Positions 10,921 through 16,007 of a stretch of DNA of 64,000 nucleotides are shown here, piece after piece. The position numbers were made by a program, and so were the translations under genes. The stretch lies in assembly GCA_035606455.1 (NCBI GenBank), contig DATNFJ010000011.1, positions 2,034-66,033 of the forward strand. The letters run 5' to 3'. The notes under the pieces were generated by a model. The model searched no databases, was not told where the DNA came from, and saw only the letters and a list, made by a program, of their open reading frames with translations. The stretch is from Sphingomicrobium sp. (GTDB lineage: Bacteria > Pseudomonadota > Alphaproteobacteria > Sphingomonadales > Sphingomonadaceae). Numbering within the stretch: position 1 is the first letter of the stretch; every line of letters starts with the position of its first letter.

Positions 10921-11328
10921 ATGACTGCGCCGGAACTGTTGATGCAGCGGGCGAAGGATGAGCGCCGCCGCGGTCAGGTGGCCGCCGCCGAAGCCAGTTA
11001 CGCGGAGGCCGCATCGCTCGCAGGGACGGGCGAGCTGGCGCACCTTCGAGCCCACGCCCTCCGCCATGTCGCCGAACTCGCGGCGGAGCAGGGTGCCGGT
11101 GAGCGAGCCTTGAAAGCCGCGGAAGAAGCCGTTGCGATTTATGCCGCGGATCGCGGAACGCATCGCCTGAACCTGGCGAATGCGCGGCGAGTTCGAGCGC
11201 TCGCCTTGGCGGCGCTTGGCCGTCGGCAAGAATCGGCGGCCGACTGGCGCGCCGCGCGGGAGCTTTACGAGGAGCTTGGAATTGAGGCTGGAGTCGCCGA
11301 ATGCGACCGCCGCCTGAGCTCTGCCTAG
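10921..11328 (+). CDS. Hypothetical TPR-like helical protein
   Basis: Ala-rich TPR-like helices; GGGGAGAG RBS before ATG 10921. Confidence 0.55.
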   Translation: MTAPELLMQRAKDERRRGQVAAAEASYAEAASLAGTGELAHLRAHALRHVAELAAEQGAGERALKAAEEAVAIYAADRGTHRLNLANARRVRALALAALGRRQESAADWRAARELYEELGIEAGVAECDRRLSSA

Positions 11329-12407
11329 TCGAACAGCTTGGCGAAACGGCGCTTCTCGCGGTTGCGCCAGGCGCCGCGGTGCCAGGCGTCGCTGGCGAGG
11401 AGCGGGAGGACGCTGGTCGCCTCGGCGAACACCATCTGTTCCATCGCCGTCGAGACCTTGCCCCAGCTGGCCGCTTCCTGGAGTGTCGAGGATGAGCAGG
11501 CGCCGTCGCGCACGTCGGCGACGGTGATCTGGACCGCGTACTTGTGCACCTCGACATCGTCGTGGCCGAGGATTTCCGCACAAACCACAGTATCTTGCGT
11601 GAAGTTCTTCGGAACGCCTCCACCGATCATCAGCAAGCCGGTGGTGCCCGCCTTGATCTTGATGTCGGTAAGCTCGCGGAAGTCGGCGATGCTGTCGATC
11701 GTCATATAATGGCCGCCGCGCTTCATCGCGTCGACCTGGTGCTTGACGAGGCCGAAGCCGGCCGAGCTGTCGGTGAAAGCCGGGCAGAAGATCGGAACGT
11801 CATTCTCGTACGCGAGCTGGACGAGGCTGCCCTGCTTCTTCGCGTTGCCCTCGCTCAGCCACTTGCCCATCTCGCGGATGAAGGCGCGGCTGGAATATGG
11901 CCGCGGCTCGAGGCTGTCGGCGATGAGGCCGATCGTGTGGTCGCAATCCTGCAGCTTCTCTTCGTCGATATAGGTGTCGTAGATGCGGTCGATGTAGAGC
12001 GACCGAAGGGTGTCATCGTCAGGAATTTCATTGGCTTGATAATGCTTGTGGCCAAGTGCTTCGAAGAAATCCATGTCGACGATCGTGGCGCCGGTGGCGA
12101 CGATCGCATCGACCATGTTGGAGCGCACGAGCTCGGCATAAAGGTCCATGCAGCCGCCGGCTGAGGTCGAGCCTGCGACGACGAGGATGATCGAGCAGGC
12201 GGGGTCCTCCAGCATGGTGTTGTAGATCTTGGTCGCCCGGGCCAGGTCGCGGCTGGTGAAACTCATATGGCCCATCGCATCGACGATCGGGCGGGCGTCG
12301 AACTTGGTGATGTCGATATGCTCGACGGGGCTTGAGAGAAGCTCCGCCTTGCGGGTGTCGTTGATCCGGTCGGTCTCCTGAGTCTCGATCAGGGTCTCGG
12401 TCGTCAT
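11325..12407 (-). CDS. Deoxyhypusine synthase-like protein (SpeY-like, probable homospermidine pathway)
   Basis: IFCPAFTDSSAG, IGGGVPKNF, DGACSSSTLQEAASWGK (DHS active-site Lys); ATG 12407. Confidence 0.9.
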   Translation of the reverse strand: MTTETLIETQETDRINDTRKAELLSSPVEHIDITKFDARPIVDAMGHMSFTSRDLARATKIYNTMLEDPACSIILVVAGSTSAGGCMDLYAELVRSNMVDAIVATGATIVDMDFFEALGHKHYQANEIPDDDTLRSLYIDRIYDTYIDEEKLQDCDHTIGLIADSLEPRPYSSRAFIREMGKWLSEGNAKKQGSLVQLAYENDVPIFCPAFTDSSAGFGLVKHQVDAMKRGGHYMTIDSIADFRELTDIKIKAGTTGLLMIGGGVPKNFTQDTVVCAEILGHDDVEVHKYAVQITVADVRDGACSSSTLQEAASWGKVSTAMEQMVFAEATSVLPLLASDAWHRGAWRNREKRRFAKLFD

Positions 12408-12427
12408 TTTATGCTCCAATATGCGGT

Positions 12428-12498
12428 CTGCACCCCGGCGAAGGCCGGGGCCCAGGATTGCTTCTGTTGGGCTGGGCTCCGGCCTACGCCGGAGCACA
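12428..12498. repeat. REP/RIME-like palindromic doublet
   Basis: Two inverted units: CCCCGGCGAAGGCCGGGGCCCAG on + and CTCCGGCGTAGGCCGGAGCCCAG on -. Confidence 0.8.
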
Positions 12499-12504
12499 AG
12501 CAAA

Positions 12505-13734
12505 TTAAAGCTTCACCACGTTCGAACGCTTCGGCGCAGCCGCACCATAGAGGCTCGCCATCGGCTCGTCCTCGACGATCGCCGACTGGGTCACGCCGAA
12601 GCCGTTGAACTGGGTGCGCATCGCACAGCCATAAGCGCCGAGCACCCCGATCTCGATATAATCGCCCGGACCGGTGTCGCCCGGAAGCTCGAAAGGCCCG
12701 GTCATCCTGTCCAGATCGTCGCAGGTCGGGCCGTAGAAGCTGAACTTCATCGGGCGCACCTGCGATTGCTGTTCACGGATCAGCCGTACCGGGTAGCGCC
12801 AGCCGATATGGGCGGCGTCGAACAAAGCGCCATAGGCACCGTCGTTGATGTAGAGCTCATCGCCACGGCGCTTCTCCACGCGGACGAGCACGCTCGCATA
12901 TTCGGCACACAGCGCGCGCCCCGGCTCACACCATAGCTCGGCCGAATAGCTGATCGGAAGCGCTTCATAGGCCTGGTGGATGACCGCGAAATAGGTCTCG
13001 AGCGCGGGCGGTTCCATCCCCGGATAGCAGGAAGGAAAGCCGCCGCCGACATCGACGATGTCGACCGTGACCGCTGCATCGACGATCGCCTCGCGAACGC
13101 GAGTCATCGCCTCCACGAACGCGGCAGGGGTCATCGCCTGGCTGCCGACGTGGAAGCAGATGCCAAGCGCGTCGGCCGCCTGCCGGGCCGCGACCAGCAG
13201 CGCGCTCACCTCCCGCGGATCGGCCCCGAACTTGGACGCCAGGCTGAGCTTGGCATGCTCGGAGCTCACGCGGATGCGCACCAGCAGGTTGAGGTCGGTC
13301 GCCGGAACGCCGTCTTTCGAGGTCGCGCGGACGATCTTCTCGAGCTCTTCCGCCGTGTCCAGGCTGAAGGTCTTCACGCCATGATCGAAATAGGCTTCGG
13401 CGATCGCTTCCTCGGCCTTCACCGGATGCATGAAGCAGATCACGGCCTGGGGAAGGACCTCATGGACGAGGCGCACTTCGCCGATCGAGGCGACGTCATA
13501 ATGGGTGACGCGGGAATCCCACAGAATTTGGAGCAGGTCCGGCGACGGGTTGGCCTTGACCGCGTAGAGCGATCGGCCGGGGAATTTCTCGACGAAGAAC
13601 CGGGCTGCGCGCCGCGCGGCATGCGGGCGCAGCAAAGTGACCGGTTCGACCGGGCGGCTCTTGGCGATAGCGACAGCCCCCCGGCTGCCGGTCGGGGCGG
13701 CGGCTAGCCCCAGCGCGCGATGTGGCTTGTGCAA
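12505..13734 (-). CDS. Ornithine/lysine decarboxylase (alanine-racemase fold, type III PLP)
   Basis: YAVKANP PLP lysine, FHVGSQ, DVGGGF, EPGR, GPTCD; probable TTG start at 13734 after GGAGG. Confidence 0.93.
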   Translation of the reverse strand: MHKPHRALGLAAAPTGSRGAVAIAKSRPVEPVTLLRPHAARRAARFFVEKFPGRSLYAVKANPSPDLLQILWDSRVTHYDVASIGEVRLVHEVLPQAVICFMHPVKAEEAIAEAYFDHGVKTFSLDTAEELEKIVRATSKDGVPATDLNLLVRIRVSSEHAKLSLASKFGADPREVSALLVAARQAADALGICFHVGSQAMTPAAFVEAMTRVREAIVDAAVTVDIVDVGGGFPSCYPGMEPPALETYFAVIHQAYEALPISYSAELWCEPGRALCAEYASVLVRVEKRRGDELYINDGAYGALFDAAHIGWRYPVRLIREQQSQVRPMKFSFYGPTCDDLDRMTGPFELPGDTGPGDYIEIGVLGAYGCAMRTQFNGFGVTQSAIVEDEPMASLYGAAAPKRSNVVKL

Positions 13735-13735
13735 C

Positions 13736-13838
13736 TCAAGGGACCTCCAACAGGCACGTTCTTCCAAAAAGCTGCCTTGCGGTTGGAAGTCCCATGGGGC
13801 AGCGGGGGCGATATATGTGTGGGGTCTGGGCCTGTAAA
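13736..13838 (-). promoter_or_regulatory. Decarboxylase promoter and structured leader with a 19-codon uORF (13795-13736)
   Basis: TTTACA -35 and CATATAT -10-like elements; uORF MGLPTARQLFGRTCLLEVP*; 12-bp anti-SD helix. Confidence 0.6.
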
Positions 13839-13940
13839 GATTCTTCGGCCTCAAACTTAAGATTTCCCTGCCGTATGTCGCTGATCTGCAACGGCTAATC
13901 GAATAGGTGAAATATCAACCGCTTAGGAAAACATCCCAAG

Positions 13941-14879
13941 GTCTCGCACCAGGACGTCGTCGACGCCGCGGCCCGAATTGGCGATCTCGTTCAGCGGACG
14001 CCGCTGCTCGAAAGCGATATCAAGGGCACGCGCGTGTGGCTCAAGTGCGAGTGCCTCCAGACCGGCGGGGCGTTCAAGCTTCGGGGGGCTACCAACCGCC
14101 TGCTCCAACTATCGCCGGAGGAGCGCGCGCGCGGCGTAGTCGCCTTCTCGTCGGGCAATCATGCGCGGGGAGTGGCGATTGCAGCGCGGCGCTTGGGCAT
14201 GCGCGCCATCATCGTGATGCCGTCGGACGCGCCGCAGGTGAAGGTGGACGGCACTCGCGGCGAGGGCGCCGAGATCATCTTCTACGACCGGCGGAGCGAG
14301 AGCCGCGAGGAGATCGCGGCGCGAATCGCGCAGGAAACCGGCGCGACCGTGGTGCCGAGCTTCGACGATCCGGCGATCGTTGCCGGGCAGGGGACGGCGG
14401 GCCTGGAGATCGTCGAACAGCTCGGCCGGCCGCCCGAGCGGATCGTCGTCCCGTGCGGCGGCGGCGGGCTCGCTTCCGGGATCGCGCTTGCCGTGCCGGA
14501 AGCGGAGATGGTGGTCGTCGAGCCTGAAGGGTGGGACGACATGGCCCGCTCGCTCGAGCTGGGCGAGATCGTTCCAGTCGATCCGGGAGCGCCGGACACC
14601 TTCTGCGACGCGATCCTGACTCCGCGCGTGTCGCCGATCACCTTCGGAATCCTGAAGGCCCGCAATGCCCGCGCCCTGGCGGTCAGCGACGCCAAAGTGG
14701 AAGATGCGATCCGCTTCGCCTGGGAGAAGCACGGCCTGGTGGTCGAGCCCGGCGCGGCGGTCGGACTTGCAGCGCTGCTGGCGGTCAAGATCCCGCCGTT
14801 AGAGGATATGGTGGTGGTGCTGTCGGGTGGAAATATCGATCCGGAGCTTCACGCGCGGATCATCGCGCGCGCGGCTTAG
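13941..14879 (+). CDS. Threonine/serine dehydratase (PLP); start unresolved
   Basis: KCECLQTGGAFKLRGA, SSGNHA, GQGTAG, PCGGGGL, VLSGGN; in-frame VSHQDVVDAAARI...RTPL upstream of GTG 14034. Confidence 0.9.
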   Translation, partial: VSHQDVVDAAARIGDLVQRTPLLESDIKGTRVWLKCECLQTGGAFKLRGATNRLLQLSPEERARGVVAFSSGNHARGVAIAARRLGMRAIIVMPSDAPQVKVDGTRGEGAEIIFYDRRSESREEIAARIAQETGATVVPSFDDPAIVAGQGTAGLEIVEQLGRPPERIVVPCGGGGLASGIALAVPEAEMVVVEPEGWDDMARSLELGEIVPVDPGAPDTFCDAILTPRVSPITFGILKARNARALAVSDAKVEDAIRFAWEKHGLVVEPGAAVGLAALLAVKIPPLEDMVVVLSGGNIDPELHARIIARAA

Positions 14880-15130
14880 GCGACGTTGCGCGCTTTGTAC
14901 TCGCCGGGTTCGACATGGGCGGGGCTCGACCGCTCGACCGCCTGGGTCAGCTCCTCGAGTTCGGCCGCGAGAGTCTTCAATTCACCGACCAGGAACCGGC
15001 GCTCGCCCTCCGCGACATTCTCCGACGCGTCGATGAGCGTGTCGAGCATCATCGCGATGCATGGCAGGATCGTCTCTTCGATCCGCTCAAAGGCCTCTTC
15101 AAGGCGCGCCTGCTGCTCACGGAAAGGCAT
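14876..15130 (-). CDS. Hypothetical coiled/helical protein
   Basis: Fills the intergenic gap; amphipathic helical sequence. Confidence 0.55.
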   Translation of the reverse strand: MPFREQQARLEEAFERIEETILPCIAMMLDTLIDASENVAEGERRFLVGELKTLAAELEELTQAVERSSPAHVEPGEYKARNVA

Positions 15131-15184
15131 GGCCGCCAATATGCAACGAACTCGGTTAAGTCTTTGTGAAGCAGAGGGCGAAAA

Positions 15185-15352
15185 ATGACGAATTTTTCGT
15201 CGGTTGTGATGGCCGTGGGGATGGTCAGCGGGTTCCTTCTGATCGCCGGCGGAGCGAAGCTCGCGGCCGTCCGTCAGACCCGGATGCGCGGCGTCCTGAT
15301 GATCGTCGCCGCTATGGTCATCATCATGAACGTGATGATCTGGACGGTATAG
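15185..15352 (+). CDS. 55-aa two-TM membrane protein (absent from ORF track)
   Basis: MTNFSSVVMAVGMVSGFLLIAGGAKLAAVRQTRMRGVLMIVAAMVIIMNVMIWTV*; GAGGG RBS. Confidence 0.7.
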   Translation: MTNFSSVVMAVGMVSGFLLIAGGAKLAAVRQTRMRGVLMIVAAMVIIMNVMIWTV

Positions 15353-16007
15353 CCGGCTTCACCGGGTCGGTCGCGAGGCGCATGTCGAGATAATCGTCGA
15401 CGGACTTCATCAGCTGGTCGAGCTCGTTCGCGAAGAAATGGTTGGCGCCCGGAATCAGCTCGTGATGGATGGTGATGTGTCGCTGCGTCCTCAACTTGTC
15501 GACCAGCTTCTGCACCGCGCTTGGAGTGACGACCTCGTCAGCCTCGCCCTGGACGATGATTCCCGAGGACGGGCAGGGGGCGAGGAAGCTGAAGTCGTAC
15601 ATGTTGGCGGGCGGCGCGATGGAAATGAAGCCGCGGATCTCCGGCCGCCGCATCAGTAGCTGCATTCCAATCCAGGCGCCGAAGCTGACCCCGGCGACCC
15701 AGGTCGTCTCGGCTTCCGGGTGGATCGACTGGACCCAGTCGAGAGCCGACGCCGCATCCGACAGCTCGCCGATGCCGTTGTCGAATACGCCCTGGCTTTT
15801 CCCGACGCCGCGGAAGTTGAACCGAAGCGTCGCAAAGCCGCGCCTGACGAAGGTCTGGTAAAGCAGCTGGACGATCTTGTTGTTCATCGTCCCGCCGGCC
15901 TGGGGGTGCGAGTGAAGGATCAGCGCGACCGGCGCGCGCGGCCGGGTGCCGGGGTGAAATCGGCCTTCGAGACGTCCCTCGGGGCCGGGGAAAATGACTT
16001 CGGGCAT
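15324..16007 (-). CDS. Alpha/beta hydrolase found beside cysteine desulfurase genes
   Basis: MPEVIFPGPEGRLEGR, HPQAGGTMNN, FNFRGVG, GVSFG, ANHFF. Confidence 0.92.
   Translation of the reverse strand: MPEVIFPGPEGRLEGRFHPGTRPRAPVALILHSHPQAGGTMNNKIVQLLYQTFVRRGFATLRFNFRGVGKSQGVFDNGIGELSDAASALDWVQSIHPEAETTWVAGVSFGAWIGMQLLMRRPEIRGFISIAPPANMYDFSFLAPCPSSGIIVQGEADEVVTPSAVQKLVDKLRTQRHITIHHELIPGANHFFANELDQLMKSVDDYLDMRLATDPVKPAIPSRSSRS

What the first reader, a model, noticed from the sequence alone, without database searches (positions are those of the whole stretch)
13740..13803. Mutually exclusive helices that can sequester the decarboxylase SD
Seen (- strand): GGGACTTCCAAC (13793-13782) pairs over 12 bp (one G-U) with GTTGGAGGTCCC (13751-13740), which contains the SD. 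The same CTTCCAA can instead pair with TTGGAAG (13767-13761). GCTGCC/GGCAGC encloses the anti-SD and is followed by T5. Known: a conserved 'speF' leader motif was reported upstream of alphaproteobacterial ornithine decarboxylases; I cannot confirm this is the same motif. Inference: a translational switch, possibly opened by the ribosome translating the uORF.
Basis: partly seen in the sequence, partly recalled or inferred. Interest (0 to 1): 0.7.

Follow-up and report, generated by a model that had tools for sequence, protein, structure and literature searches.

The report
odc1 leader on likely arginine decarboxylase
This is a copy of an already published RNA element (the odc1 motif), whose predicted hairpin covers the ribosome-binding site shared by two overlapping start codons; it likely throttles an enzyme that, judging from its neighbour gene, probably makes agmatine rather than putrescine, which would change the list of molecules the RNA might sense.

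Summary
The helices are real, but the element is the published odc1 motif (Brewer et al. 2021, PMC8632094), not the Rfam speF leader. Two blocks match the Sphingomonas echinoides representative at 40/40 and 39/41 bases. Conserved in Sphingomonadaceae: the 5′ helix GCUGCC/GGCAGC (compensatory changes in 4 of 6 pairs), the helix over the Shine-Dalgarno (SD), two start codons two bases apart, and an 11-codon ORF overlapping the decarboxylase start (106 of 107 loci; 71 of 73 held-out). Additions: (1) the gene sits directly before speY, so by a 2026 study it is likely an arginine, not ornithine, decarboxylase, which makes arginine, agmatine, diagmatine or homospermidine the ligands to test; (2) the small ORF's stop position is held while its peptide drifts; (3) diverged copies in another order have 11–13-codon, 29–31-codon or no detected overlapping ORFs. 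Best reading: a translational switch giving polyamine-pathway feedback. Ligand and direction are untested.

The parts
13834..13839 (-). Predicted -35 hexamer (CTTTAC)
   Evidence: Read from sequence. With N17 and ATATAT it matches the alphaproteobacterial consensus CTTGAC-N17-CTATAT quoted in PMC3346310 (passage) at 5/6 and 5/6. The E. coli-type scan found no promoter. Start site not mapped.
13811..13816 (-). Predicted -10 hexamer (ATATAT); transcription would start at about 13805-13803
   Evidence: A TATAT-like hexamer ends 7-10 nt before the 5′ helix in 80 of 101 family loci. Inferred.
13798..13803 (-). 5′ strand of the 5′ helix (the pseudoknot pairing of the odc1 model), GCUGCC
   Evidence: Covaries with 13776-13771: 4 of 6 pairs change on both sides, 0 of 500 shuffles; GCCAAUC/GAUUGGC-type variants in family f188
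13782..13793 (-). Anti-SD, left arm of P1 (GGGACUUCCAAC)
   Evidence: Minimum-energy fold; 9-bp core fully paired in 96 of 107 loci, register chosen to maximise pairing
13777..13781 (-). Conserved linker CGCAA, where the published M4-M6 mutations lie
   Evidence: At least 90% conserved columns; mutant templates in the supplement; effect on expression from the text of PMC8632094 section 19
13771..13776 (-). 3′ strand of the 5′ helix, GGCAGC
13752..13770 (-).
   Evidence: Spacer length 13 to 80 nt across 103 loci; alternative helix no longer than in shuffles
13740..13751 (-). Right arm of P1 with the SD GGAGG (13748-13744), shared by both starts
   Evidence: predicted SD unpaired probability 0.0006 here, median 0.0014 over 101 loci
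13704..13739 (-). Overlapping small ORF: UUG 13739-13737, 11 codons (MSCTSHIARWG), UAG 13706-13704
   Evidence: 11 codons in 106 of 107 loci and 71 of 73 held-out loci; use of the equivalent start shown by reporter for S. echinoides RNA in E. coli
12505..13734 (-). Alanine-racemase-fold decarboxylase from UUG 13734-13732 (MHKPH...), annotated type ornithine decarboxylase, likely arginine decarboxylase
   Evidence: Best PDB match a lysine/ornithine decarboxylase, E 7.5e-46; only copy found in the assembly; substrate inferred from speY linkage
11325..12407 (-). [quoted passage not shown]
   Evidence: NCBIfam NF002699, 563.5 bits against cut-off 500; ORF

Best explanation
The element is an odc1-motif leader whose predicted P1 hairpin buries a Shine-Dalgarno shared by two start codons, and it likely acts as a translational switch that lowers output of a probable arginine decarboxylase when products of the homospermidine pathway are plentiful. 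Steps. (1) Predicted: the 5′ helix GCUGCC/GGCAGC forms first during transcription and holds the anti-SD in its loop; once the SD is made, P1 wins (window -31.3 against -17.5 kcal/mol). (2) Shown for the S. echinoides copy in E. coli by others: both UUG starts are used, the upstream one about 3-fold more, and mutating the CGCAA linker abolishes main-ORF expression, so a fold needing the linker favours the second start. (3) Inferred: ribosomes entering at the first UUG make an 11-codon decoy; its stop position rather than its peptide is what is held, and a ribosome terminating there would overlap the footprint of an initiation complex on the second start. (4) Inferred, untested: a pathway polycation (homospermidine, diagmatine or agmatine) shifts the balance towards P1 or the decoy start, giving negative feedback on the first step of homospermidine synthesis.
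For: Identity with odc1: sequence blocks 40/40 and 39/41 against the supplement template, compared by eye, and all architecture features. Covariation of the 5′ helix (f188 variants). SD predicted buried, P1 state lower in energy in 86 of 101 loci. Order of folding. Stop selected: main-frame codon 10 is CTA/GTA/TTA/ATA in 105 of 106 loci, whereas CTA is 18 of 1779 Leu codons and GTA 56 of 1636 Val codons in the gene body, where that frame has a stop at only 2.1% of codons. Peptide drifts: R9 72, W10 72, G11 73 of 106; neither frame under strong purifying selection. speY directly downstream in 16 of 16 genus and 25 of 29 family loci; an agmatine-deiminase-family gene in 29 of 30 and SpeA-type arginine decarboxylase in 0 of 30 genus genomes, the pattern that PMC13625781 ties to arginine specificity. 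Published reporters were higher in minimal than in rich medium.
Against: No ligand binding or regulation has been shown for any odc1 RNA in the papers found. P1 is held mostly by invariant bases and G-U wobble; only one of its nine core pairs shows a clear two-sided change (U-A 74, C-G 8), and its right arm is constrained as SD anyway. Whether the 5′ helix and P1 exclude each other or coexist as a pseudoknot (the published drawing) is unresolved. In this genome an extra spacer helix makes P1 about 14 kcal/mol more stable than the 5′-helix state, a large gap for a switch. The overlapping ORF was not detected in family f186 and is 29-31 codons in f71, so step 3 cannot be general. The medium effect was modest, applied to both starts and was measured in E. 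coli. Arginine specificity is inferred, not assayed, for any Sphingomonadaceae enzyme in the passages read; other arginine decarboxylase types were not searched.
Confidence: 0.55

Rival explanations
1. A true riboswitch: the 5′ helix, the CGCAA linker and the anti-SD form a pseudoknot pocket that binds a small molecule directly (agmatine, diagmatine, homospermidine or arginine), and the small ORF is a secondary add-on. This is a narrower version of the best explanation.
For: H-type pseudoknot topology with the SD in the second stem; near-invariant unpaired linker needed for main-ORF expression; the RNA core persists in lineages where the small ORF changes length or is not detected; Brewer et al. 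raise a riboswitch as one possibility.
Against: No binding data. Few conserved unpaired bases survive across orders (CGCAA becomes GCUAA). Base identity of the 5′ helix is free to change.
Confidence: 0.3
2. The ribosome is the sensor: polyamines alter the choice between the near UUG (4 nt after GGAGG) and the far UUG (9 nt), or the pause at the small ORF's UAG, and the RNA structure only sets the baseline.
For: Dual start kept in 107 of 107 family loci and 73 of 73 held-out loci, and in 21 of 21 loci of families f71 and f188; strong selection on the stop. Polyamine effects on weak start codons and SD spacing are reported for E. coli (search listing only; details recalled).
Against: No conserved arrest-like peptide; no Arg codon in 23 of 106 small ORFs; does not explain why the linker mutations act on the main start.
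Confidence: 0.3
3. A constitutive damper: P1 and the decoy start simply keep a rate-limiting enzyme low, with no signal sensed.
For: SD predicted almost fully paired in the family; low reporter levels and only a modest medium effect.
Against: A damper needs neither a covarying second helix nor a near-invariant linker whose mutation lowers expression.
Confidence: 0.2
4. An RNA-binding protein or small RNA (for example the enzyme itself or SpeY) recognises the 5′ hairpin and shifts the fold.
For: A short, sequence-conserved leader at the transcript's predicted 5′ end is compatible.
Against: No candidate factor identified; the linker mutations had their effect in E. coli, which would lack a cognate factor.
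Confidence: 0.1
5. One reading: an upstream AUG ORF is translated through the anti-SD, which refolds onto UUGGAAG and frees the SD; T5 marks a terminator.
For: The pairings are possible in this genome (forced fold -18.7 kcal/mol); the AUG ORF here (19 codons, 13795-13736) stops on the first UUG.
Against: Alternative partner in 4 of 103, T5 in 2 of 103, AUG in 72 of 103 with no fixed frame or length; the AUG lies about 9 nt from the predicted start with no SD; no terminator called.
Confidence: 0.03

Closest known systems
odc1 motif (uORF-25-1), Brewer et al. 2021 RNA Biol, PMC8632094 (read: section 19 in full, other passages, reporter templates in supplementary file 1; figures and the Stockholm alignments not held)
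   Same: Core sequence (40/40 and 39/41 bases), P1 over the RBS, 5′-end/loop pairing, UUG-NN-UUG, 11-codon overlapping ORF, position before an ODC-type gene.
   Different: Nothing defining. Added here: peptide is not well conserved across the family though length is; length exceptions exist (10, 9 and 48 codons in single loci); diverged copies in another order; downstream gene is speY, so the enzyme is likely an arginine decarboxylase.
speF leader, Rfam RF00518 (Corbino et al. 2005, PMC1273637; passages read; also PMC3346310 passages)
   Same: Conserved RNA upstream of an alanine-racemase-fold decarboxylase in Alphaproteobacteria.
   Different: No covariance-model match. That element ends more than 150 nt before the start codon and overlaps the Smr45C sRNA; this one is about 70 nt and contains the SD and both starts.
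Salmonella/E. coli speF leader peptide system (PMC6386406; search listing and start of abstract only, rest recalled)
   Same: Leader-based control of a polyamine decarboxylase through a small ORF and alternative folds.
   Different: Recalled: there a 34-codon ORF lies wholly upstream and its sequence matters. Here the ORF overlaps the gene, shares its SD and has a drifting sequence.
SD-sequestering H-type pseudoknot riboswitches (guanidine-III, PMC5696562, search listing and start of abstract; SAM-II and preQ1 recalled)
   Same: Topology: 5′ hairpin whose loop pairs with a downstream strand carrying the SD.
   Different: No Rfam match to any of them; no ligand known; dual start and overlapping ORF are not features of those classes (recalled).
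Phage lambda S dual-start motif (recalled, no call)
   Same: Two starts a few bases apart whose use is set by an RNA structure over the SD.
   Different: Those starts are in frame and give holin and antiholin; here they are out of frame and give enzyme or decoy peptide.

Membership tests
odc1 motif | Extended P1 stem with the RBS in its right arm and a large loop | tested here: met
odc1 motif | Pairing between bases near the 5′ end and the P1 loop | tested here: met
   GCUGCC/GGCAGC covaries; simultaneous formation with P1 not testable
odc1 motif | Two UUG starts separated by two nucleotides | tested here: met
   13739 and 13734
odc1 motif | 11-amino-acid uORF from the first start | tested here: met
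   MSCTSHIARWG then UAG
odc1 motif | Conserved bases just before the loop pairing strand; sequence match to the published representative | tested here: met
   40/40 and 39/41 identity to the S. echinoides template, by eye
odc1 motif | Alphaproteobacterial, upstream of an ODC-annotated gene | tested here: met
   Closest named relatives are Sphingomicrobium at 88-89% protein identity; fold match
odc1 motif | Score against the authors' own alignment or covariance model | not testable with these tools
   The motif gave no Rfam 15 hit and the Stockholm archive is not among the held supplements
speF leader RF00518 | Covariance-model score at or above 37 bits | tested here: not met
   No hit at E<=5 in window 12000-16000; 0 of 41 genomes over cut-off
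speF leader RF00518 | Long leader ending more than 150 nt before the start codon | tested here: not met
   Predicted leader here is about 70 nt in all
Riboswitch (functional class) | Direct, selective ligand binding that changes expression | not testable with these tools
   Needs probing or binding assays
Intrinsic terminator / attenuator | Short hairpin followed by a conserved U tract | tested here: not met
   No terminator called; T run of 5 or more in 2 of 103
SpeY-linked ODC homologue turned arginine decarboxylase | Genome encodes speY, no other evident ADC; activity on arginine | tested here: inconclusive
   speY adjacent, SpeA-type 0 of 31; activity not assayed, other ADC types not searched

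The most novel reading that the evidence does not exclude
The odc1 RNA is the Sphingomonadaceae branch of a wider alphaproteobacterial riboswitch class that directly senses agmatine, diagmatine or homospermidine and decides between two overlapping start codons on one Shine-Dalgarno. Its pseudoknot core is older than the decoy ORF, which lineages have tuned to 11, 13 or 29-31 codons or dropped. It was missed because the gene was taken for an ornithine decarboxylase and because the published reporters stop before the decoy's natural stop codon.
Probability: 0.22. Interest if true: 0.8.

Novelty: new member of a known kind. Interest (0 to 1): 0.4.

Why it matters
The element is known, so discovery value is low. 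It is, however, an orphan motif with an unusual two-start design, and only one paper on it turned up. Linking it to the SpeY pathway gives a short, testable ligand list that differs from the ornithine/putrescine expectation. The comparative data give design rules: keep the natural UAG, which the published reporter templates omit (they end a few bases before it), test stop position rather than peptide, and use the f188 and f71 variants as natural compensatory mutants. If a ligand is found, it would be a sensor for a newly described polyamine route that works by start-codon choice.

Tried and rejected
speF RF00518: no match; 16 related loci gave only an unrelated whalefall-1 hit. Long-range pairing of the 5′ end with the small ORF's end (UGGGGCUAGC), seen in the 113-nt fold: a helix of 6 bp or more in 72 of 103 loci (no null computed), lost where the small ORF's end diverges; left open and not used as evidence. 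A second partner for the anti-SD just after the 5′ helix (GUY within 11 nt in 64 of 101 against 29.8 in shuffles; GGGUU in 12 of 12 f71 loci): suggestive, but the window lacks it and the shuffle ignores positional U bias, so not adopted. Arginine-codon sensing by the small ORF: no Arg in 23 of 106. RNA runs: 4 of 24 listed runs were laid; all are contigs and cannot show start site, strand or level, and the pile-up at 13681-13741 sums contigs of other organisms. Agmatine deiminase, SpeA and the PF16653 domain were not found in the own assembly, which is 85% complete, so this says little. Earlier findings of the scan: none. Literature searches for later work on odc1, for a Caulobacter version and for agmatine or arginine-decarboxylase riboswitches listed nothing on this element beyond PMC8632094; the library lacks most subscription papers.

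Full report
Location. The finding lies on the minus strand just before an alanine-racemase-fold amino-acid decarboxylase, followed by speY (NCBIfam NF002699, 563.5 bits, cut-off 500). The closest named relatives of the decarboxylase are Sphingomicrobium records at 88-89% identity. A promoter-like CTTTAC-N17-ATATAT at 13839-13811 fits the alphaproteobacterial consensus quoted in PMC3346310 (passage); the E. coli-type scan found none. The leader would start near 13804 and be about 70 nt. This is inferred, not mapped.

Observation.

Identification. Rfam gives no speF match (0 of 41 genomes over cut-off). The literature search led to Brewer et al. 2021 (PMC8632094; section 19 read in full), which describes the odc1 motif: P1 over the RBS, a 5′-end/loop pseudoknot, two UUG starts two bases apart and an 11-residue uORF. 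The S. echinoides template in its supplement matches the window over 40 of 40 bases (13805-13766) and 39 of 41 bases (13750-13710), compared by eye. The window has UUG 13739, AG, UUG 13734 and an 11-codon ORF ending at UAG 13706-13704. The figures and the authors' alignments were not available, which bears on whether the distant variants below are new.

Comparative set. I took 108 family loci: 19 from the genus search (own locus included) and 89 of the 118 family matches. One (L008, unpublished genome G020) was dropped from then on; one search's count of 108 of 108 dual starts includes it. The alignment holds 101 loci; besides L008 I left out four whose loop pattern was not found (L089, L092, L093, L095), one with a long insertion (L080) and one mis-anchored (L124). 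All six match the resulting model at 48-85 bits. These genomes are kin, so counts overstate independence.

What is conserved. The 5′ helix has 99.2% of cells paired and two-sided changes at 4 of 6 pairs; no shuffle of 500 reaches this, and slid registers pair at most 49%. The P1 core is fully paired in 96 of 107 loci, though the register was chosen to maximise pairing and only one pair shows a clear two-sided change. The dual start with an 11-codon ORF holds in 106 of 107; the exception, L123, has 1-nt spacing and 10 codons. In 80 named loci, 2 were too short and 5 duplicated earlier ones; of the 73 tested, all have the 2-nt dual start, 71 have 11 codons (others 9 and 48), and 65 have the 5′ helix fully paired. 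The model finds one copy in the own genome.

What is not conserved.

Stop, not peptide. The stop is built from main-frame codon 10, which is CTA, GTA, TTA or ATA in 105 of 106 loci, although CTA is 1% of Leu and GTA 3% of Val codons in the gene body, and that frame has a stop at only 2.1% of codons there. The peptide varies (84 distinct 36-base haplotypes; the last three residues keep their commonest form in about 70%), and changes that are non-synonymous in both frames are only mildly depleted (ratio 0.84). This softens the published view that the peptide itself is functional. One wobble position that keeps residue 7 aliphatic (T in 96 of 106) may reflect some peptide-level selection.

Wider distribution. 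A model built from the family alignment, with only the 5′ helix as structure, hits the decarboxylase start region in 18 of 30 loci from the order of G101 at E<=0.01 (22 at E<=1), in L019 and L021 from other families of the own order (L022 weakly), in none of L024-L028 and L030, and in 2 of 20 class-wide loci, both from the order of G101 (E-values rough). The 30 loci are the best-scoring of 53 matches. Seven of nine f188 loci keep CCAUGG(G/A)ACC and CGCAA with a rewritten 7-bp helix; all nine have dual starts, with ORFs of 11 (4) or 13 (5) codons. All 12 f71 loci have a CCGGCG/CGCCGG helix, a GCUAA linker, GUG-NN-(U/G)UG and ORFs of 29 or 31 codons. In f186 no dual start was detected in the 8 of 9 loci with a start called, and 8 of 9 were missed by the model, though they share CUAACGCCGG and GGGU by eye. 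The RNA core therefore seems more widespread than the 11-codon ORF.

The enzyme. PMC13625781 (2026; passages and section 10 read) reports that SpeY works on agmatine, that ODC homologues of two speY-bearing alphaproteobacteria act only on arginine, and suggests the same for Rhizorhabdus wittichii. Here speY follows directly in 16 of 16 genus, 25 of 29 family, 45 of 73 named and 20 of 30 other-order loci with enough sequence (loci reach only about 1.5 kb). An agmatine-deiminase-family gene is present in 29 of 30 genus genomes and SpeA-type arginine decarboxylase in 0 of 30 (both include G020 as one row). The window's enzyme has AAHIGW where the solved lysine/ornithine enzyme has IMYDHW; that this aspartate sets specificity is recalled. 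So the enzyme is likely an arginine decarboxylase feeding homospermidine synthesis. Six speY-linked loci in other families lack the motif, so the motif is not required for the pathway.

Mechanism. Folding of prefixes predicts the 5′ helix up to 60 nt and P1 from 65-70 nt on. P1 is the lower state in 86 of 101 loci (median -25.5 against -21.5 kcal/mol; pseudoknots not modelled). Published reporters show both starts used, about 3-fold more from the first, higher expression in minimal medium, and loss of main-ORF expression when the linker is mutated. I read this as a switch between an SD-buried state and a linker-dependent state that favours the far start, with the short ORF as a decoy that could block the second start while terminating, under feedback from a pathway polycation (confidence 0.55). 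Whether the RNA binds the ligand (0.3) or the ribosome senses it (0.3) is open; a constitutive damper (0.2) or a protein factor (0.1) are not excluded. The published templates end a few bases before the natural UAG, so that feature has not been tested in the paper read.

Verdict. A real, conserved element; a new member of a known but unsolved motif. Interest 0.4, for the revised ligand list and the wider family rather than for discovery.

Noticed in passing
window 13911-14879 (+): The divergent serine/threonine dehydratase-family gene has an open frame from 13911 whose homology to relatives begins about 30-40 codons before the first ATG/GTG/TTG (14034). Several close relatives share (A/G)GGTGAAATATCAA at the start of the frame, and several of these likewise have no canonical start in the first codons, hinting at a non-canonical start such as ATC.
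   Followed up: partly
window 12431-12497: Strong G+C hairpin between the decarboxylase and speY; 23-42-base pieces of it match 27 places (often arm pairs) on 11 other contigs of the assembly, so likely a REP-like intergenic repeat.
   Followed up: partly
PMC8632094 supplementary file 1, rows M5 and M6: As listed, the M5 and M6 templates also carry the M2 change that removes the first start, which conflicts with the text that M5 barely affected uORF expression; probably a table error, but it bears on reading those mutants.
   Followed up: no
L015 (G016), decarboxylase 5′ end: The second start is out of frame with the decarboxylase body: a frameshift or assembly error between them.
   Followed up: no
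L022, L123, L146, L147, L205, L247: Deviant overlapping ORFs: 1-nt spacing with 6 codons (L022) or 10 codons (L123); 12 (L146), 18 (L147), 48 (L205) and 9 codons (L247).
   Followed up: partly
L155:3717-3772: Rfam whalefall-1 RNA at gathering score downstream of the decarboxylase, in a locus where speY follows.
   Followed up: no
window 13868-13900: A block GATTAGCCGTTGCAGATCAGCGACAT (minus strand) upstream of the promoter recurs in several genus members; possibly a promoter or operator of the divergent gene.
   Followed up: no
L080, L093, L105, L129, L131: Extra hairpins or long insertions inside the leader, between the 5′ strand and the anti-SD or in the spacer, with the core kept.
   Followed up: no
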